Shown: piece by piece, positions 26,678 through 33,591 of the stretch
How the letters are laid out: each line of letters starts with the position of its first letter
Numbering within the stretch: the first letter of the stretch is position 1
Sequence record: PP627278.1
DNA: 58,418 nt
Strand: one strand, 5' to 3'
DNA from: Escherichia phage KS_A3
Made by a program: the position numbers and the translations under genes
The notes under the pieces: generated by a model
The model's input: the letters and a program-made list of their open reading frames with translations, nothing else
Databases searched by the model: none
Told to the model about the DNA's origin: nothing

Positions 26678-27597
26678 CAGAACAACTCCATTACACGATC
26701 ACGGAATGTGCCGTCATGGGTAGCGTTAATGTTTGCAGCAATTACACCATACGCCCATAAGTTGAAGGCAGCACGTGATTCATAGATTGTTGATAAACGT
26801 TCGTAAGTGAAACCGTTTTGCTCAAGGTATTTAAGGACAGCGTCTTGTTCAATTTCAGTTAATGTTGAAACATGCTTACCAAAATGATGGCGGTCCGGTG
26901 ACTTATCTGATACGCGCATTGGTCCCCACGGAGGGGTAACCACACTTCCAAACGCTGCCGCTTGAATCCAGGAGGATGAGTCACAGCTATACCACGGATA
27001 ACGCTCCATAATGGTTGTGGACGTAATACCAAACGCATGAAGTTTAATTTTAGCACGTCCGCTACCGTCGCAAATATATTTGTCCCACATGCGGTCCAGC
27101 CAAGTTTTAAGCGTGTCCGTTGAACGTCCTACCATGCCCCCAATGGTGATATATTCGTAGTTCTTCATGTAGTATTCAAGATAGCGGAAGTCCTCCCCAA
27201 AGTGAAAGCAAGGTAACGGTTTAGCACCGCGTGCTTCCATTTCAAGCTGGTTACGGTAGGTTTGCAACGGGTCACCAATACCGTCGAGCACCGACGCCAT
27301 TACAGCACCATCTTCTACGCGAAGGATGTCTTTGTTACGCTTGATGTATTCGCAGTATTCAACAATATCAATGTGAGCACCCAAAGAGTGCGCGGAGAAT
27401 GCACCTGAGTCGAGAAACACTTTAGCCCCATCCGCACGCATTTGATCAACATACTTCTGACGTCCAACGTAGTGGTATGATTCCAAAATATTTGGAAGGC
27501 TATTAACAATGTCTTTTTCCCGATCGTTTAACTTTTCATATCGTTGTTGACCAGCTTTATAGCCGTTGGTATATACCGCAGCGACAAACAGATGCAT
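26677..27597 (-). CDS. dpdA: DNA-guanine transglycosylase (tRNA-guanine transglycosylase-like, DpdA family)
   Basis: 306 aa; FLDSGAFS motif resembling the catalytic DSGG(F/Y)Q region of TGT enzymes; sits in operon with queC/D/E and folE. Confidence 0.65.
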   Translation of the reverse strand: MHLFVAAVYTNGYKAGQQRYEKLNDREKDIVNSLPNILESYHYVGRQKYVDQMRADGAKVFLDSGAFSAHSLGAHIDIVEYCEYIKRNKDILRVEDGAVMASVLDGIGDPLQTYRNQLEMEARGAKPLPCFHFGEDFRYLEYYMKNYEYITIGGMVGRSTDTLKTWLDRMWDKYICDGSGRAKIKLHAFGITSTTIMERYPWYSCDSSSWIQAAAFGSVVTPPWGPMRVSDKSPDRHHFGKHVSTLTEIEQDAVLKYLEQNGFTYERLSTIYESRAAFNLWAYGVIAANINATHDGTFRDRVMELF

Positions 27598-28154
27598 TAT
27601 TCCACCTCAAATTTATTACGCTTAGATCTGTTTTCTTCAATAGATAAGTATTGTAGGTTACTAAGGACGTGAAGTCCACTGACTCTTTTACCGCAAAGAG
27701 GTATAATATGATCAACCTCCATCCCATCCGGGCAGTTAGCGTAGAACAATTCAATTTGTTCTTTTTCAGACCACGCAGGGATTCTTAAAGACCTTTTCTT
27801 ATGCACTTCAAGGGAATGTAACCTTGATCTAGCTTTACCGTAATCTGTCTTAGCCCAGCGTTTCAGCCTTTCTTTATTTTGTTCTTTACCTTTCTCAGTA
27901 GAATTATAAGCAGCTTTTGAACGTTGAAGGGCTTCTTTTCCTTTCTGTGACTTATGGTATCTCTTAATAGCATTCCTTGCAGCTTCTGTTTTATTGTAAA
28001 TACGCATTCTTTTCTTTCGTGCTTCTCTGTCACAAGTAATACAATAGCCATCTACAGTCTTTCTTTCAGAAACATGACCTTTCGCACAAGGCTTACCAGT
28101 AAAATAATATTTCAAACCTCTTTCTTTTGCTTCAGCTCTTGTGATAATTTCCAT
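27597..28154 (-). CDS. HNH homing endonuclease
   Basis: 185 aa; Cys-rich zinc-binding N-terminus, DHIIPL...N HNH motif; inserted between dpdA and folE. Confidence 0.7.
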   Translation of the reverse strand: MEIITRAEAKERGLKYYFTGKPCAKGHVSERKTVDGYCITCDREARKKRMRIYNKTEAARNAIKRYHKSQKGKEALQRSKAAYNSTEKGKEQNKERLKRWAKTDYGKARSRLHSLEVHKKRSLRIPAWSEKEQIELFYANCPDGMEVDHIIPLCGKRVSGLHVLSNLQYLSIEENRSKRNKFEVE

Positions 28155-28224
28155 TGTCTTATACCAACTAAAAAGCCCATACCAGTATTATGACCGATAT
28201 GGGCTTGATCTGTAAAGCTATCTA

Positions 28225-28866
28225 TTATTTACAAGCTTCAAGGAACTCCCGGCGCCATTCTTTACCAATATCGCTACCATGCTCCAGTTCTGTAGCGCCC
28301 CGGAACGCTTTGGTAATAGTAGAGCTGCCACATACCTGCTTAACTCCGCGCGACTCCATGCACATATGCTTGGCGTCAACATAAACACATACAGCTTTCG
28401 GGTTTAAATGCTCCTGAATAGCGTCTGCAATCTGGTTAGTAAGACGTTCCTGAACTTGCAGTCGACGACTAAAAGCATCCACAACGCGAGACAGCTTACT
28501 AAGCCCAACAATCTTCCCATTGGGGACATAACCCACGACAGCATGACCGATGATAGGAGCCATGTGATGCTCACAATGACTATACACAGGGATATCACGG
28601 ACAATGACCATTTCATTGGTGTTTTCCGCCCCATCCTCAAAGGTTTTAAACAGACCAGCGATATCTACATCGTAACCGCTAAACCACGTTGCATAAGCTT
28701 TCGCTACACGCTCCGGAGTTTCCTCCAGCCCTGGGCGCAGAACCGCGCTAACTTCAATTTGGGATAGTAAAGTACGCACAGCGTTAGCAATACGGAATTG
28801 AACACCTTCACTATTAATACTATATTTAGACATGGTTTGCAGTTTCCTTGTTGTTAATGTGGTCAT
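28225..28866 (-). CDS. folE: GTP cyclohydrolase I
   Basis: 213 aa; SHCEHHM and GLSKL/QVQERLT motifs of FolE. Confidence 0.85.
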   Translation of the reverse strand: MTTLTTRKLQTMSKYSINSEGVQFRIANAVRTLLSQIEVSAVLRPGLEETPERVAKAYATWFSGYDVDIAGLFKTFEDGAENTNEMVIVRDIPVYSHCEHHMAPIIGHAVVGYVPNGKIVGLSKLSRVVDAFSRRLQVQERLTNQIADAIQEHLNPKAVCVYVDAKHMCMESRGVKQVCGSSTITKAFRGATELEHGSDIGKEWRREFLEACK

Positions 28867-28868
28867 AC

Positions 28869-29378
28869 TTACAGACTATAGTTTACGTGGCACTTCGAAG
28901 TTTCTTCGATGGTGCATTCTACAAGTTGAACACCATGTTCGTCAAGTAGCAGTGGCCCAATTACGTTGACCATATATGCAGCTAAGTTTTCCGCAGTAGG
29001 ATTGAATGGTAAAGATACCAGTGAATGAAAAAACGCATCACCATCAAGCTCACTTATACTCGGTCTGGAAGACATCTTCCAATCCTGGCTTACTAAATTT
29101 TTCAACCCGTCAATTAGCAAGTCTTTTTCCCAGTGCAGGAACTTATGATCCCAATTATCTTCCAACCACTGGCAGAGCGTAGTTTTAACCACACTAAAGT
29201 CGATAACTCGCCCAACTTCGTCCAGCAAAATACTATTCATTTCTTGCGACCCTTTTTTCGGCGCAACCTTAAAGTGAAACTTATAGTTATGACCGTGAAG
29301 GTGACGACACTTACTTTCATGACCCACAACACGGTGACCAGCGCAAATTTCATGTGAACGAATTACTGTATAGCTCAT
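28869..29378 (-). CDS. queD: 6-carboxy-5,6,7,8-tetrahydropterin synthase
   Basis: 169 aa; CAGHR and CRHLHGH zinc-binding motifs of QueD/PTPS. Confidence 0.8.
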   Translation of the reverse strand: MSYTVIRSHEICAGHRVVGHESKCRHLHGHNYKFHFKVAPKKGSQEMNSILLDEVGRVIDFSVVKTTLCQWLEDNWDHKFLHWEKDLLIDGLKNLVSQDWKMSSRPSISELDGDAFFHSLVSLPFNPTAENLAAYMVNVIGPLLLDEHGVQLVECTIEETSKCHVNYSL

Positions 29379-29379
29379 T

Positions 29380-29649
29380 TTAATCCTCTTCTACTCTATT
29401 CATAAATTCCAAATGACGACGCATAGTTTCTTCTTTTGTGGAAGAATTAAAATGTGACCAACCGTTATCTAAGAAGTATGCCCAGTAATATTCGCCATAT
29501 TTCTTCCGCATAGCTGGGATGGGGCATTTCCTTCTTTCAAGCTTAGGATTCTGCGATTTTATATAAGCTTGTTTTTCTTTAAGACTTAATGCTTCAAACC
29601 AATCAGCTAGCTCGTGAAACTTTAAATGACTTGGAGGTACAGGAATCAT
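29380..29649 (-). CDS. hypothetical protein within 7-deazaguanine cluster
   Basis: 89 aa ORF, coupled to neighbours. Confidence 0.4.
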   Translation of the reverse strand: MIPVPPSHLKFHELADWFEALSLKEKQAYIKSQNPKLERRKCPIPAMRKKYGEYYWAYFLDNGWSHFNSSTKEETMRRHLEFMNRVEED

Positions 29650-30263
29650 TTTAACACCTCTTTAGATTGTTCAATTTCTAACGCACGCTGTGCGGATGCA
29701 ATAATGTCTTTCAAATCTTCTACCACATGCTTATGACCGCGTTCGCCAGGCTGCAACGCCTTTTTAATCAAATGTTGTAAAGCTGGGTTAGTTGTCTTCC
29801 AAGCTTCCAAGACATCATACACGTCCACGATGCATTTTACAACATTGCCGTTTTCATCTTTACCATAAATAACTTTCTGGTATTTGTTTAGATTGTCGTC
29901 TTTATTCATAGCAGATCGTATATCCCAATCCTTTCCGTATACGCCCAGTCCATCAATAGCGAAACTTTCAGAAGTCACTTTAAATCCATTTTCACCGGCT
30001 TGTCTAACGTAATCTTCTGCGACAATATAACGCCAAGATATAACCGAATCCCTTTCTAACGGTATTACGTTATCACAGGATTTTTTATACCAGTCCCATC
30101 CTTGCCTATGATTTTTCTTAAGAGAACCGTCAGCTAATTGAACTTCAAACTGTTCGTTTTGAAGAAAAATGGGCATTCCTTTCCCATCGTGCTTGTGCCA
30201 AATTTTATTAAGATTATCTTTCATTTTACGCTCTCGCTGTACGTGAATGAACTTCGTAAACAA
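29646..30263 (-). CDS. hypothetical protein within 7-deazaguanine cluster
   Basis: 205 aa soluble protein; no motif recognised. Confidence 0.45.
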   Translation of the reverse strand: MFTKFIHVQRERKMKDNLNKIWHKHDGKGMPIFLQNEQFEVQLADGSLKKNHRQGWDWYKKSCDNVIPLERDSVISWRYIVAEDYVRQAGENGFKVTSESFAIDGLGVYGKDWDIRSAMNKDDNLNKYQKVIYGKDENGNVVKCIVDVYDVLEAWKTTNPALQHLIKKALQPGERGHKHVVEDLKDIIASAQRALEIEQSKEVLK

Positions 30264-30705
30264 CCCAAAGGATGGCAGATGCTGTGAACTTACTTAAGCT
30301 CATTGCTACCATTGATCCCGGATTAATAATACCTATAATACTTAAGAACACAATGGAGTCAATCGGTACAGCTACTAAAGAGCTGATAAATACGCGTTGA
30401 TGGAAAGGCTTCTTGGTGACCGTGTATACTACATAGTCCGCAAACTCACTAAGCGCAAAAGACGCAACGGATGCAACTACAACCGCAGGATCACCGAACA
30501 CCCAGCTAAGGATGCAACCAACAATCATTGCAGGGATGACGCCTTTGCCAGCGTTACGCTGTGCGTAATCACGCAGAACAAAGATAATGCCTACAAAGAA
30601 AGCCATCATGGGGACTACGCCAAGTGGCGTATTAAGCATCGGAAGATAGGAAAAGCCCAGGTTTACGAATGTAATTGCAGCCAGATAAGCAACGATAAAT
30701 TTCAT
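30226..30705 (-). CDS. small polytopic membrane protein, candidate 7-deazaguanine precursor transporter (YhhQ/QueT-like)
   Basis: 159 aa with about five hydrophobic helices, SD GGAG; located between queC and queD; family assignment from context and loose resemblance only. Confidence 0.35.
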   Translation of the reverse strand: MKFIVAYLAAITFVNLGFSYLPMLNTPLGVVPMMAFFVGIIFVLRDYAQRNAGKGVIPAMIVGCILSWVFGDPAVVVASVASFALSEFADYVVYTVTKKPFHQRVFISSLVAVPIDSIVFLSIIGIINPGSMVAMSLSKFTASAILWVVYEVHSRTARA

Positions 30706-30825
30706 ACTTTTGTTCTCCAGTTTTAACAGCGCTATTCGCTGGTTGTTGGGTTTAAAAGCTTTAGTAGTATAGTTGGGTTACCGCACCCTAAACAATGCGC
30801 TAGCGGTGCGGTTTTCGCGGTAAGA

Positions 30826-31548
30826 TCAAACGTGTTTGCTGTAAGCGTTATCCATAAATTCGCTGTACCCTTTAGCACGCAATTTGCACGCAGGACATTC
30901 ACCGCAACCATATCCCCAGTCATGCAGAGTGCGACGGACGCCATTATAGCAACTATGGGACTGTTCAATTACTGTGGTTAAGAAACCAACCTTATCCGCC
31001 AGCTCAAACGTTTCTGCTTTATTTAAACGCATAAGCGGAGTAACAAAATGGATATCTGTTTCATATCCAACGTTTAACGTAGCTTCAAGCAAATCTACAA
31101 ACTGCTGACGGCAATCCGGATAACCGCTATAGTCCGTCTCACAAACGCCTGTAACCACATATCGGGCTCCAACCTTCTGCGCATAGGCGTGCGCGGTAGT
31201 CAGGAAAAGAGCATTACGGTTGGGCACAAAGCTTGCCGGAAGGTTGTTGTGCTGTTCGTGATGTTCGTTAACATCACCTTCGTTCCCGATTAAAGCGCTA
31301 TTGCCAATTTGTTTCAAAGCAGGTAATTCAAAGACAACAAACGGGACATCGTGCTCTTTACAAATTTGATTAGCACAAGCCAGCTCAATGTTATGACGTT
31401 GACCGTATGCAAAACCAATAGCGTAGACCTTATCATAGTTATTCAGTGCAAGACCCAAACAGGTCACGCTGTCCTGGCCGCCAGACAGGACAACAACGGC
31501 GGAGTTATGATTTTTTACAGGGAATACCAGTTTATCTAATTTATTCAT
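30826..31548 (-). CDS. queC: 7-cyano-7-deazaguanine synthase
   Basis: 240 aa; PP-loop VVLSGGQDS; C-terminal Cys cluster CYNG...CGECPAC. Confidence 0.85.
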   Translation of the reverse strand: MNKLDKLVFPVKNHNSAVVVLSGGQDSVTCLGLALNNYDKVYAIGFAYGQRHNIELACANQICKEHDVPFVVFELPALKQIGNSALIGNEGDVNEHHEQHNNLPASFVPNRNALFLTTAHAYAQKVGARYVVTGVCETDYSGYPDCRQQFVDLLEATLNVGYETDIHFVTPLMRLNKAETFELADKVGFLTTVIEQSHSCYNGVRRTLHDWGYGCGECPACKLRAKGYSEFMDNAYSKHV

Positions 31549-31753
31549 TTACTTCACCTTCAATATCACAAGGGTTGATTGTTACGTTAGACATTACAAT
31601 TGGATGATTGCGCGCTCCAATTGTACTAACGTGATTAATATCTAATTCTACATGCACACCTTGCATAGTAGCATGGGCAATTGAAGAATTAAGTTTTTCT
31701 ACCAGCTCAGTGATCATTTCCTGATGCTGTTTCGCTTCTTCCAAAGTGATCAT
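31541..31753 (-). CDS. hypothetical protein
   Basis: 70 aa ORF. Confidence 0.35.
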   Translation of the reverse strand: MITLEEAKQHQEMITELVEKLNSSIAHATMQGVHVELDINHVSTIGARNHPIVMSNVTINPCDIEGEVNE

Positions 31754-32008
31754 TTAAACCTCCGTTAATGTTTGAGTCCAGTCTAAGCCTTCAAGATCTA
31801 CATCAGCTATTTCATCGTACTCGTAAGCTTCCGGATCTGCTGGCAACCATCTATCAAAGCGATGGCTAAGTTCTGGAGGAATTGCTTCATATCCCCAAAC
31901 CTTCCCATCCTTGTCGGCTGCCAGATAATCAACTCGACTTGGAACGGTTAAAGCGACACCACAAAAATTAACATCTTTAGTATGCACAACCTGGCTTAAC
32001 ACACGCAT
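31754..32008 (-). CDS. hypothetical protein, member of three-copy paralogous family
   Basis: 84 aa; shares AxDxDGKV...Y and W..TL.E motifs with ORFs 52708-52950 and 53292-53588. Confidence 0.45.
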   Translation of the reverse strand: MRVLSQVVHTKDVNFCGVALTVPSRVDYLAADKDGKVWGYEAIPPELSHRFDRWLPADPEAYEYDEIADVDLEGLDWTQTLTEV

Positions 32009-32715
32009 TATTCCACCCCGATATATTTGTGAACCTGAAGCTGCAACGTGTAACCGTGTTTCATACAGCTTTGGACAACGGCTTGGATATTACTGTGGTT
32101 AAGGTCTTCATCCTGCTCGTCCATTGGCTGTAAATATATCTTACCCTTGAAACCCTTCGGAGGTCTAGCGATAAATGGCGTAGCTTGATGATCTAATGCC
32201 TGAAGCGGCAAACCATCTTCCACGTTTACACAGCACGCTTTAAGTACATATTTAAATGCATTAGCGCGGCGCAGCACAGAAGGATGAATCTTTGAGGTCT
32301 TGGGACTACATACAATTACAGGTAACTGGGAAAAGTTCTTAGGTAAAGGCATAGACCCATTAGTTTCAATTTGCACCAAATACCCGCGCGATAACAGTTG
32401 TTCAATAAACGGGTTAATTTGCTGACGGAACGGTTCACCCCCAGTGATAACCACAAGTGAGGTGCTATTACCTGATTCCAGCTTACGGCTTTCGATTAAA
32501 CGCATAATATCGACAATGTGATAAAGACTACGACCAACAGTATAATCTGTATCACAGCCAGGACATTGCAGATTACACCCAGCAAGACGCACAAATACAG
32601 CAGGTTGGCCGCAGAATGGACCTTCACCTTGAATGGTAGAGAATACCGAATGCACGTCTAAATACATATCGTTTTCTTTAGAACGGGACTCGGGAGCTTG
32701 TTGATTAATATTCAT
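32008..32715 (-). CDS. queE: 7-carboxy-7-deazaguanine synthase (radical SAM)
   Basis: 235 aa; radical-SAM Cys triad CNLQCPGC; ITGGEP motif. Confidence 0.85.
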   Translation of the reverse strand: MNINQQAPESRSKENDMYLDVHSVFSTIQGEGPFCGQPAVFVRLAGCNLQCPGCDTDYTVGRSLYHIVDIMRLIESRKLESGNSTSLVVITGGEPFRQQINPFIEQLLSRGYLVQIETNGSMPLPKNFSQLPVIVCSPKTSKIHPSVLRRANAFKYVLKACCVNVEDGLPLQALDHQATPFIARPPKGFKGKIYLQPMDEQDEDLNHSNIQAVVQSCMKHGYTLQLQVHKYIGVE

Positions 32716-32730
32716 CTTAAATCCTCTAGT

Positions 32731-32760
32731 GAAAAAGAAAGCGCCTCATTGGGCGCTTTC
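32731..32760 (-). terminator. hairpin terminator/attenuator upstream of queE
   Basis: AAAGCGCC-TCATTG-GGCGCTTT followed by a U-run on the - strand; only about 16 nt before the queE start codon. Confidence 0.35.
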
Positions 32761-32784
32761 ATTATAACGTGATATGTTTTGATA

Positions 32785-33591
32785 TTACAAGCCGTTCAGG
32801 GCTTCCGGTACTGGTACAGGTACGCGACCAGTCACACCATTAAATTTCTTCCAGCGTGCATACTGGGTTTTAACGGTATCTTCGTTCAGACCATGTCGAC
32901 CAGCCAGGTTCAGAACATAAGAGATCGGAGCAGGCTGACCCAGCGTAGCGCTAATCTGGTCCATCAGAGCCCAGGCACGACCGCAGGAAGTTTCAGGTTG
33001 TGGACGACGAACACCATTCTGTTCAGGCATACGGTTCGCTTCTTTCGCTTTTTCACGTTCAGCTTTTTCGCGGGCTTTTTCAGCAGCCTTTTCAGCCTGT
33101 TTAGCAGCGCGGATCTTGTCTTTGAAGCCTTTGATAAACGAATCCAGTTCGTCAACCATGCTCTGAGCAGCACTTACTGCACCGGACAGATCTTCATCTT
33201 TGGATTTTTTAACAACTGCTTTCAGCTCTTTCAGTTTATTCTTAAAAAGCTTCAGCTGTTCAGAACCCTGAAATTCAGCTACCGTAATCTCTTCAATAGT
33301 GCCTTTATCGGCAACATCGGATAAAACAGACCTCACGGTTTCAACTCCGCGGGAAAGAGCGGTAAATTTATTTTCCGCTACAGCACGAATTTCAGCTTGT
33401 TTCTTTTCAGCGGCAGCTTTTTTCTCTGCTTCTTTTTTCTCTTTTGCTACGCGTGCAGCTTCAGCGGCAGCGGCTTTTTTAGCTTCTTTCTTTGCAGGCT
33501 TAGCAGATTTTTCAGCGGCAGCAGCGGCTGCGGCAGCAGCGGCTGCGGCAGCAGCGGCTTTCTTATCTTCAATATTACTCATTTTCTTCAC
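32785..33591 (-). CDS. lysine/alanine-rich histone H1-like protein with poly-Ala tract
   Basis: 268 aa; N-terminal run of 15 Ala then KAAK/EKKA repeats, globular C-terminal domain. Confidence 0.55.
   Translation of the reverse strand: MKKMSNIEDKKAAAAAAAAAAAAAAAEKSAKPAKKEAKKAAAAEAARVAKEKKEAEKKAAAEKKQAEIRAVAENKFTALSRGVETVRSVLSDVADKGTIEEITVAEFQGSEQLKLFKNKLKELKAVVKKSKDEDLSGAVSAAQSMVDELDSFIKGFKDKIRAAKQAEKAAEKAREKAEREKAKEANRMPEQNGVRRPQPETSCGRAWALMDQISATLGQPAPISYVLNLAGRHGLNEDTVKTQYARWKKFNGVTGRVPVPVPEALNGL
33515..33559. repeat. perfect 3x tandem 15-mer (GCGGCAGCAGCGGCT) encoding poly-Ala
   Basis: three identical 15-nt units read directly in the sequence. Confidence 0.9.

What the first reader, a model, noticed from the sequence alone, without database searches (positions are those of the whole stretch)
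29380..30705. Three uncharacterised ORFs, including a polytopic membrane protein, inside the deazaguanine operon
Between queD and queC lie an 89-aa ORF, a 205-aa soluble ORF and a 159-aa protein with about five hydrophobic helices. A membrane protein in this context suggests a precursor (preQ0/preQ1/queuine) importer of the YhhQ/QueT type, which would let the phage salvage host-made 7-deazapurines. The two soluble ORFs are candidates for an unrecognised tailoring or specificity component. Assignments rest on context only.
Basis: inference. Interest (0 to 1): 0.65.

Follow-up and report, generated by a model that had tools for sequence, protein, structure and literature searches.

The report
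Known phage preQ0 transporter plus passengers
The membrane protein is the YhhQ-type preQ0 transporter already annotated, published and deletion-tested in sister phages such as CAjan, and the two soluble genes look like variable accessory passengers rather than missing steps of the DNA-modification pathway.

Summary
The window is Escherichia phage KS_S4 (Seuratvirus, Queuovirinae). All three ORFs are real, co-oriented and tightly coupled between queC and queD. The middle one is more likely 192 aa (ATG at 30224) than 205 aa.

The 159-aa membrane protein belongs to a short phage branch of the VUT/YhhQ family (hhalign 99.4% against bacterial YhhQ). It is 99.4% identical to CAjan YhhQ, which is published as a putative preQ0 transporter. 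Deleting it in CAjan left dPreQ0 modification at wild-type level. That part of the finding is correct but already known.

The 192-aa protein is a mosaic: a small N-terminal domain, a hypervariable disordered linker and a roughly 80-aa C-terminal module. The module occurs in 752 phage genomes, most from groups not known for que genes. It has no Pfam family. It is possibly a distant relative of DUF3310, the domain of the T7 gp1.7 nucleotide kinase, but that test was inconclusive. It is unlikely to be a deazaguanine tailoring enzyme.

The 89-aa protein folds confidently (pLDDT 89) but matches no known fold. It is rare and is absent from CAjan, which still makes dPreQ0. It lies beside yhhQ, queC or queD in 9 of 10 informative contexts. 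Its function is unresolved. Overall interest is low.

The parts
30226..30705 (-). ORF-C: 159-aa polytopic membrane protein, short phage-type VUT/YhhQ family (putative preQ0/preQ1 importer)
   Evidence: Pfam Vut_1 scores 25.1 bits against a gathering score of 27.2, and TIGR00697 scores 22.5 against 50.95. All 43 of 43 homologues hit Vut_1. hhalign against a bacterial YhhQ set that includes E. coli YhhQ gives probability 99.4%, E 3.3e-21. The protein is 99.4% identical to CAjan 'putative preQ0 transporter'. It has 5-6 hydrophobic spans.
29646..30224 (-). ORF-B: 192-aa soluble mosaic protein (PHROG 23361), start at the ATG
   Evidence: Homologues begin MKDNLNK and GenBank CDS0039 uses this start. 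The AF2 model has mean pLDDT 68 and shows two folded domains joined by a disordered linker. There is no Pfam, NCBIfam or PDB sequence match and no Foldseek match in the PDB.
30015..30224 (-). ORF-B N-terminal small beta-rich domain (residues 1-70; W-x-K-H-D-G-x-G-x-P motif)
   Evidence: pLDDT is 70-77. Identity among Seuratvirus-type homologues is 43-99%. The same motif opens some unrelated module-bearing proteins (P0080, P0090, P0095).
29895..30014 (-). ORF-B linker (residues 71-110): hypervariable and predicted disordered
   Evidence: pLDDT is 30-48. Identity among homologues is 0-28%, and 12% against CAjan, while the flanking genes are 98-100% identical.
29649..29894 (-). ORF-B C-terminal module (residues 111-192): NKY...VDVYDVLxAW..NPALQHLIKKALQPGERGHK...DLxDIIxSAxRA
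   Evidence: The module is 70-77% identical across proteins with unrelated N-termini. Invariant residues are K114 Y115 D134 Y136 D137 H151 K154 K155 G160 R162 H164 K165 D170 S177 R180. tblastn finds it in 752 of 50,697 phage records. pLDDT is 75-89. No Pfam family matches. The alignment to DUF3310 is collinear but not significant.
29380..29649 (-). ORF-A: 89-aa basic soluble protein (pI 8.7) of a rare family linked to que/yhhQ genes
30706..30825 (-). queC-yhhQ spacer with a hairpin (30780-30812) and the yhhQ ribosome-binding site
   Evidence: The fold is. The equivalent site is annotated as a rho-independent terminator in SA80RD. No Rfam family matches, preQ1 riboswitches included.
30826..31548 (-). 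queC (flank)
   Evidence: Pfam QueC 251.7 bits
28869..29378 (-). queD (flank)
   Evidence: Pfam PTPS 83.3 bits

Best explanation
The queC-queD interval of this Seuratvirus is a variable accessory slot inside the dPreQ0 DNA-modification operon (queE, queC, yhhQ, ORF-B, ORF-A, queD, folE, dpdA). It does not hide missing pathway steps.

(1) ORF-C is a minimal (159-aa) member of the VUT/YhhQ transporter family. It most likely sits in the inner membrane during infection and imports exogenous preQ0 or preQ1. That would top up the pool that FolE, QueD, QueE and QueC make from GTP and that DpdA swaps into DNA. It is auxiliary and dispensable when de novo synthesis works. Family membership is shown here. 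Substrate and direction of transport are inferred from E. coli YhhQ and from context.

(2) ORF-B is a mosaic accessory protein. Its function lies in a highly conserved, widely shared C-terminal module rich in invariant Lys, Arg, His and Asp residues. My best guess is a nucleotide- or nucleic-acid-binding domain distantly related to DUF3310, the domain of the T7 gp1.7 dGMP/dTMP kinase. It would then serve general nucleotide metabolism or host interaction, not deazaguanine chemistry. This step is inference.

(3) ORF-A is a small, well-folded protein that is optional within the genus and not needed for dPreQ0 formation. It travels with yhhQ and que genes in Queuovirinae-like phages. It may modulate or partner with that module, but its mechanism is unknown.
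For: ORF-C:
- Vut_1 hit; 43 of 43 homologues hit Vut_1.
- hhalign 99.4%, E 3.3e-21 against bacterial YhhQ, with collinear motifs.
- 99.4% identical to CAjan YhhQ.
- Published as a preQ0 transporter. [quoted passage not shown]

Operon:
- Tight gene coupling.
- Terminator-like sites only outside the queE-to-folE block, at 32737-32760 and 28173-28206.

ORF-B:
- The module is in 752 phage records, including Jerseyvirus, Rogunavirus, Acinetobacter and Vibrio phages.
- Three module-bearing contigs show recombination genes or arrays of small ORFs and no que genes.
- The N-terminus and linker vary while the flanks are 98-100% identical.
- The alignment to DUF3310 is collinear over 59-71 columns. The global score is 12.84, against 2.33 +/- 1.57 for 150 column shuffles (maximum 7.23) and 1.96 for the reversed profile.
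- T7 gp1.7 residues 122-184 match PF11753 at E 4.5e-23. gp1.7 phosphorylates dTMP and dGMP (PMC11897194).

ORF-A:
- pLDDT 89.
- Present in 5 of about 34 Seuratvirus records that carry yhhQ.
- CAjan carries an unrelated 107-aa gene in its place.
- Homologues lie next to queC, yhhQ or queD in 9 of 10 informative contexts, with varying gene order.
Against: ORF-C:
- It is just under Pfam's gathering score (25.1 against 27.2) and far under the TIGR00697 equivalog cut-off (22.5 against 50.95).
- It is about 60 residues shorter than E. coli YhhQ, and its C-terminal third did not align.
- No transport assay exists for any phage YhhQ. The only genetic test showed no phenotype.
- E. coli already has its own YhhQ, so the benefit to the phage is unproven.

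ORF-B:
- The DUF3310 link fails the standard tests. There is no Pfam hit for 28 members. It shares no PHROG with gp1.7. HHalign P is only 0.016-0.039. The local score is matched by 4 of 150 shuffles.
- BFVD structural hits to annotated nucleotide kinases are weak.
- A module-bearing protein also sits inside the Nonagvirus cluster, next to Gat-QueC. That could mean a pathway link after all.

ORF-A:
- The association with que and yhhQ genes could be functional rather than inherited synteny.
Confidence: 0.6

Rival explanations
1. One reading: the two soluble ORFs are unrecognised tailoring or specificity components of the 7-deazaguanine pathway. They might alter the base or DpdA's target motif.
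For: Both lie inside the operon and are translationally coupled to yhhQ and queD. ORF-A homologues sit beside queC, yhhQ or queD in 9 of 10 informative contexts, in varying order. A protein with the ORF-B module is also encoded inside the Nonagvirus cluster, directly upstream of Gat-QueC.
Against: CAjan lacks ORF-A yet makes dPreQ0 at two defined motifs. WildeMaa has nothing in that slot. The ORF-B module occurs in 752 phage genomes, most from groups not known to carry que genes. Its N-terminus and linker are hypervariable. Neither protein resembles an enzyme fold. Most of the ORF-A contexts are syntenic Queuovirinae relatives, so they are not independent observations.
Confidence: 0.1
2. ORF-C is a VUT-family protein but not a preQ0 importer. 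It might carry another substrate, such as queuine or an unrelated metabolite. Or it might have been recruited for a membrane role such as superinfection exclusion.
For: It scores below the TIGR00697 equivalog cut-off. It belongs to a distinct short (150-165 aa) branch. Its C-terminal third did not align to bacterial YhhQ. CAjan delta-yhhQ has no modification phenotype. From general knowledge, substrate range varies among YhhQ homologues: the Chlamydia homologue is reported to take up queuine (Yuan et al. 2019, listed as a reference in PMC8310023; not read here).
Against: It sits persistently between queC and queD in diverged phages. The core motifs are conserved and collinear with YhhQ. There is no Pfam or PHROG hit to holins or exclusion proteins.
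Confidence: 0.2
3. ORF-B is a host-interaction or counter-defence protein. The conserved C-terminal module would engage a conserved target, and the variable N-terminus and linker would evolve under an arms race. Its position in the que operon would be incidental.
For: Against CAjan, identity is 54% (N-terminal domain), 12% (linker) and 78% (module), between flanks that are 98-100% identical. The module is fused to many different N-termini and sits among small early genes in unrelated phages. T7 gp1.7, the DUF3310 protein, is itself sensed by the Avs5 defence system (PMC11897194).
Against: No known anti-defence family was matched, although PADLOC and anti-defence libraries were not searched. 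The invariant Lys, Arg, His and Asp pattern looks more like a ligand or catalytic site than a protein-binding surface. That reading is inference.
Confidence: 0.2
4. One or more of the ORFs is a chance reading frame rather than a gene.
For: ORF-A has few homologues and is absent from most Seuratviruses.
Against: ORF-A has homologues at 35-55% identity in diverged phages, pLDDT 89, a strong Shine-Dalgarno sequence and an ATGA overlap. ORF-B and ORF-C have hundreds of homologues.
Confidence: 0.02

Closest known systems
CAjan YhhQ (AJT60526.1 / YP_009196835.1) and other Seuratvirus 'preQ0 transporter YhhQ' annotations; E. coli YhhQ (b3471), Pfam PF02592 Vut_1 / COG1738
   Same: ORF-C is 99.4% identical to the CAjan protein and occupies the same position downstream of queC. 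It shares the VUT family profile and collinear core motifs with E. coli YhhQ.
   Different: It is 159 aa against 221 aa for E. coli YhhQ. It scores below the TIGR00697 equivalog cut-off. No phage member has been assayed for transport. The CAjan deletion has no modification phenotype in rich medium.
DUF3310 (PF11753), the C-terminal domain of the T7 gp1.7 nucleotide kinase
   Same: Size and predicted strand-plus-three-helix layout are the same. The motif order also matches: (H/K)Y, then an acidic I/V-D-V stretch, then K-(Y/K)-x-L-x-x-G-x-(K/R), then D-L-x-(K/D)-A/I. Divergent module members even begin HSHY or HDHY. The profile alignment is collinear and beats shuffled and reversed controls in global mode.
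   Different: No member hits PF11753. No PHROG is shared. HHalign probability is negligible and P is about 0.02-0.04. KY is replaced by KK, and there is an invariant His-Lys pair. Kinase activity is untested.
The variable small-gene content of Queuovirinae deazaguanine clusters (twelve-gene CAjan cluster with six unassigned genes; 'hypothetical genes inserted in between')
   Same: ORF-A and ORF-B are among the unassigned genes described in PMC7544227 and PMC10484667.
   Different: This analysis adds three points. ORF-A is optional within the genus and tracks yhhQ and que genes. ORF-B carries a module shared with hundreds of phages from other groups. The slot next to queD holds different genes in different isolates.

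Membership tests
VUT / YhhQ transporter family (Pfam PF02592, COG1738) | Significant match to the family profile | tested here: met
   KS_S4 protein: E 2.5e-5, 25.1 bits, just under the gathering score of 27.2. All 43 of 43 aligned homologues match Vut_1, best E 1.3e-8. Profile-profile comparison with bacterial YhhQ, including E. coli, gives 99.4%, E 3.3e-21.
VUT / YhhQ transporter family (Pfam PF02592, COG1738) | Polytopic inner-membrane protein with about six helices | tested here: met
   GRAVY +1.05, with hydrophobic spans at about 1-22, 26-48, 52-89 (two helices), 104-128 and 130-151
Queuosine precursor transporter equivalog (NCBIfam TIGR00697) | Score above the curated equivalog cut-off | tested here: not met
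   22.5 bits against a cut-off of 50.95. Family membership holds, but functional equivalence is not established by sequence.
Queuosine precursor transporter (functional) | Demonstrated uptake of preQ0 or preQ1 | not testable with these tools
   Only indirect evidence exists. CAjan delta-yhhQ keeps wild-type dPreQ0 in BHI medium (PMC7544227).
Queuosine precursor transporter (functional) | Genomic linkage to 7-deazaguanine or queuosine genes | tested here: met
   The gene lies between queC and queD here and in diverged relatives.
QueT (ECF-type S component) | Match to the QueT family profile | tested here: not met
   No QueT hit in Pfam or NCBIfam at E<=1
   The only hits are PHROG 4899 (unknown function) and Vut_1.
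DUF3310 / T7 gp1.7 nucleotide kinase (ORF-B C-terminal module) | Match to PF11753 | tested here: not met
   No hit at E<=10 for 20 close and 8 divergent members. T7 gp1.7 itself hits at E 4.5e-23.
DUF3310 / T7 gp1.7 nucleotide kinase (ORF-B C-terminal module) | Profile-profile homology | tested here: inconclusive
   Collinear over 59-71 columns, P 0.016-0.039. Global score 12.84 against shuffles 2.33 +/- 1.57 (0 of 150 reach it) and 1.96 for the reversed profile. Local score 15.16 against 9.40 +/- 2.07 (4 of 150 reach it). No shared PHROG.
DUF3310 / T7 gp1.7 nucleotide kinase (ORF-B C-terminal module) | dGMP/dTMP kinase activity | not testable with these tools
   This needs a biochemical assay.
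preQ1 riboswitch upstream of yhhQ | Match to Rfam preQ1-I, preQ1-II or preQ1-III | tested here: not met
   No Rfam match at E<=10, either in 28100-33000 or in the 151-nt spacer alone

The most novel reading that the evidence does not exclude
The 89-aa ORF-A family is a dedicated small partner of phage VUT transporters or deazaguanine clusters. It could be a cytoplasmic preQ0-binding hand-off protein or a regulator of YhhQ or DpdA. It lies next to yhhQ, queC or queD in 9 of 10 informative contexts, and the gene order is shuffled among them. One of these contexts is a contig with a diverged Vut_1 and no que genes in view. A second, weaker novel reading concerns the ORF-B module. It would be a new branch of gp1.7-like nucleotide kinases, recruited independently into the Seuratvirus and Nonagvirus deazaguanine clusters.
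Probability: 0.12. Interest if true: 0.5.

Novelty: already known. Interest (0 to 1): 0.2.

Why it matters
The headline idea, that a phage carries a YhhQ-type importer to salvage 7-deazapurine precursors, is already in GenBank annotations and in several papers, with a deletion mutant. KS_S4 adds nothing new there.

What remains open is modest but real. No phage YhhQ has been shown to transport anything. A very widespread phage domain, the ORF-B module found in about 1.5% of sequenced phage genomes, still has no family or function. A small, confidently folded protein (ORF-A) tracks the deazaguanine and yhhQ genes without being required for the modification. Resolving the last two would fill gaps in phage early-gene annotation. 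It would not change the picture of DNA hypermodification.

Tried and rejected
1. ORF-B module as DUF3310. This was my own recollection of the T7 gp1.7 C-terminal sequence.
- A narrow module profile against T7 gp1.7 gave nothing.
- The same profile against an alignment of T7-like sequences gave E 0.4-0.94.
- There was no PHROG overlap and no Pfam hit.
- Only after both profiles were broadened did a collinear alignment appear, and its support is marginal.
- I keep it as a lead, not a membership.

2. Structure matches.
- Foldseek of the ORF-B model against the PDB gave nothing at E<=0.001.
- Foldseek against BFVD found only uncharacterised viral proteins sharing the module, plus occasional fusions labelled DNA ligase or phosphodiesterase.
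- The afdb50 library was unavailable.

3. A preQ1 riboswitch in the queC-yhhQ spacer. It looked similar by eye, but there is no Rfam match. The fold z-score is only -1.7.

4. PDB sequence searches for all three proteins found nothing meaningful.

5. The word-indexed homologue search for ORF-A found only its own cluster. The exhaustive search was needed, and two of its 15 hits were repeat-protein false positives.

6. The search for related loci with the ORF-A alignment failed because no stretch was conserved enough.

Full report
**Identity of the window.** A 4.8-kb stretch of the window around the finding (28000-32800) is 100% identical to Escherichia phage KS_S4 (PP627282.1; Seuratvirus, Queuovirinae). 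Window coordinates equal record coordinates minus 111. Seuratviruses such as CAjan replace part of their genomic G with 7-cyano-7-deazaguanine (dPreQ0). They use FolE, QueD, QueE and QueC to make the base and DpdA to insert it (PMC6884629, PMC7544227).

**Observation.** Three co-oriented minus-strand ORFs lie between queC (30826-31548; Pfam QueC 252 bits) and queD (28869-29378; PTPS 83 bits).
- ORF-C is 30226-30705 (159 aa).
- ORF-B is 29646-30224 (192 aa).
- ORF-A is 29380-29649 (89 aa).

The spacing indicates translational coupling: a 1-nt gap, an ATGA overlap, then another 1-nt gap, each start preceded by a Shine-Dalgarno-like sequence. Terminator-like hairpins were found only outside the queE-to-folE block.

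**ORF-C.**
- Pfam Vut_1 matches at E 2.5e-5 (25.1 bits, gathering score 27.2). NCBIfam's 'queuosine precursor transporter' matches weakly at 22.5 bits, against a cut-off of 50.95.
- The protein belongs to a branch of 150-165-aa proteins, mostly from phage-sized contigs. Most of them carry a precomputed PF02592 hit. All 43 members that I aligned hit Vut_1.
- A profile of this branch aligns to a profile of bacterial YhhQ proteins, E. coli YhhQ included, with 99.4% probability and E 3.3e-21. The motifs are collinear: LRD in helix 2, AS..AF..SE..D, and SS....DS..F.
- Hydropathy gives 5-6 helices.

So it is a VUT/YhhQ-family protein, and it is not QueT. It is 99.4% identical to the CAjan protein annotated 'putative preQ0 transporter'. 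It is named 'preQ0 transporter YhhQ' in the BASEL phages and in SA80RD.

The CAjan yhhQ gene was deleted by Kot et al. [quoted passage not shown] The authors regard this as expected for a salvage transporter (PMC7544227). EC151 and the phage iggy papers repeat the annotation.

Transport by any phage YhhQ remains undemonstrated. The protein also falls short of the equivalog threshold, so the substrate is inferred.

**ORF-B.** It has no Pfam, NCBIfam or PDB sequence match. PHROG 23361 (unknown function) covers the whole protein, and five further PHROGs match only the C-terminal 60-90 residues.

Homologues fall into two groups. Full-length relatives come from Seuratvirus-like genomes. A much larger set of proteins shares only the last 28-45% of the query at 60-83% identity, behind unrelated N-termini.

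The shared module reads NKY-x-R-E-I-K...VDVYDVL-x-AW-x-V-x-NPALQHLIKKALQPGERGHK-x4-DL-x-DII-x-SA-x-RA. It contains about 20 invariant residues, many of them Lys, Arg, His or Asp.

AlphaFold gives three regions:
- a small beta-rich N-terminal domain (residues 1-70, pLDDT 70-77);
- a disordered linker (72-108, pLDDT below 50);
- a hairpin plus three helices for the module (pLDDT 75-89).

Foldseek finds no PDB match. In BFVD it finds only uncharacterised viral proteins, some of them fusions labelled DNA ligase or phosphodiesterase.

tblastn finds the module in 752 of 50,697 phage records. These are mostly Salmonella Jerseyviruses, Escherichia siphoviruses, and Acinetobacter, Klebsiella and Vibrio phages. 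Three contigs that I inspected place it among recombination genes (Erf, YqaJ, SSB, MazG) or arrays of small ORFs, with no que genes.

Within Seuratvirus the gene is a diversity hot spot. Against CAjan the N-terminal domain is 54% identical, the linker 12% and the module 78%. The neighbours YhhQ, QueC and QueE are 99.4%, 98.3% and 100% identical.

These facts argue against a dedicated deazaguanine tailoring enzyme. One observation points the other way. Nonagviruses (JenK1 gp35, ChristophMerian bas19_0033) encode a 253-aa module-bearing protein directly upstream of Gat-QueC.

**Is the ORF-B module a DUF3310?** From memory, the module resembled the C-terminus of T7 gp1.7. That region is indeed PF11753 (E 4.5e-23). 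gp1.7 is a dTMP/dGMP kinase (PMC11897194).

The direct tests failed. There was no Pfam hit for 28 members, no shared PHROG, and nothing from narrow profiles.

I then added nine divergent module members, some of which begin HSHY or HDHY like DUF3310. I also added eight divergent DUF3310 proteins. With these, hhalign produced an end-to-end collinear alignment of 59-71 columns with P 0.016-0.039.

Controls:

| Mode | Observed score | 150 column shuffles | Shuffles reaching it | Reversed profile |
|---|---|---|---|---|
| Global | 12.84 | 2.33 +/- 1.57 (max 7.23) | 0 of 150 | 1.96 |
| Local | 15.16 | 9.40 +/- 2.07 | 4 of 150 | 9.6 |

I read this as a plausible distant relationship that is not established. 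A nucleotide-binding or kinase-like role is my best guess for the module, at low confidence.

**ORF-A.** The word-indexed search found only its own cluster. The exhaustive search of 1.84 billion representatives found 13 true relatives of 71-163 aa at 33-55% identity, plus two repeat-protein false positives.

In GenBank phages it occurs in five Seuratviruses: KS_S4, SA80RD, SHIN8, ECP2304 and VogelGryff. It occurs at about 45% identity in Nonagviruses and in Klebsiella Queuovirinae. In the two that I examined it again lies between Gat-QueC and QueD.

CAjan carries an unrelated 107-aa gene in this slot, and WildeMaa carries nothing. ORF-A is therefore not needed to make dPreQ0.

Context was informative for ten family members. 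Nine lie beside queC, yhhQ or queD, and the order varies:
- QueC, ORF-A, YhhQ in L096;
- YhhQ, ORF-A in L095, L117 and L118;
- YhhQ, a 128-aa gene, ORF-A, QueD in L093.

One of the nine (L098) follows a diverged Vut_1 gene on a contig that shows no que genes. One 72-aa relative (L097) lies after a PD-(D/E)XK gene with no que genes nearby.

Most of these contigs are syntenic Queuovirinae relatives, so inheritance explains much of the pattern. The shuffled order and the L098 case leave room for a functional tie to the transporter or the pathway.

**Other checks.** The 120-nt queC-yhhQ spacer holds a hairpin, which SA80RD annotates as a terminator. It matches no Rfam family, preQ1 riboswitches included.

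**Verdict.** The finding is real. Its central interpretation is correct but already published and partly tested. The 'hidden tailoring component' idea is unlikely for ORF-B and unproven for ORF-A.

The most useful residue of this work is two annotation leads. The first is a very common, unnamed phage domain that may be a distant DUF3310 relative. The second is a rare small protein that tracks yhhQ and que genes.

Noticed in passing
window 27597-28154 (-): A 185-aa ORF lies between dpdA and folE. Its C-terminus looks HNH-like by eye (EVDHIIPL...N). It has no Pfam hit at E<=0.01. Most Seuratviruses lack this stretch: their megablast alignments start at about window 28167. It is probably a homing-endonuclease insertion.
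   Followed up: partly
window 29380-29649 compared with L116 2694-3017 (CAjan) and L003 (WildeMaa): The slot immediately upstream of queD holds different genes in different Seuratviruses. Five isolates carry ORF-A. CAjan carries an unrelated 107-aa gene whose C-terminus resembles Nonagvirus bas19_0030. WildeMaa carries nothing.
   Followed up: partly
L100 1-649 (JenK1 gp35); L006 1740-2498 (ChristophMerian bas19_0033): Nonagviruses encode a protein of about 253 aa that ends in the ORF-B C-terminal module (49% identity). It lies directly upstream of Gat-QueC. A module-bearing protein therefore sits inside the deazaguanine cluster in two genera, at different positions.
   Followed up: partly
window 29895-30224 (-), ORF-B N-terminal domain and linker: This is a local diversity hot spot. 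Against CAjan the N-terminal domain is 54% identical and the linker 12%, while the adjacent YhhQ, QueC and QueE are 99.4%, 98.3% and 100% identical. This suggests recombination or diversifying selection.
   Followed up: partly
L098 510-2325: A 4.5-kb metagenomic contig carries a Vut_1 gene (39 bits, above the gathering score). Two genes downstream is a 163-aa protein that ends in the ORF-A domain, near a C5 DNA methylase. No que genes are in view. This may be an ORF-A and VUT association independent of the Queuovirinae.
   Followed up: partly
window 31541-32008 (-): Two small ORFs (70 and 84 aa) lie between queE and queC. GenBank labels the 70-aa one 'radical SAM domain-containing', but it has no Pfam hit here. 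The 84-aa one is conserved in Nonagvirus at 54% identity.
   Followed up: no
window 32785-33591 (-): A 268-aa ORF has a run of 14 alanines and long Lys/Ala/Glu-rich low-complexity stretches. Relatives annotate it as 'FtrA domain-containing'. It has no Pfam hit here.
   Followed up: no
window 30780-30812 (-): A stable hairpin sits in the queC-yhhQ spacer. SA80RD annotates the equivalent site as a rho-independent terminator. It may attenuate read-through into yhhQ, ORF-B, ORF-A, queD and folE. It matches no Rfam family.
   Followed up: partly
protein P0061 (metagenome, 166 aa): One predicted protein joins the YhhQ C-terminus (96% identity) to an ORF-B segment (76% identity). It is either a frameshifted assembly or a natural fusion at the 1-nt gene junction.
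   Followed up: no
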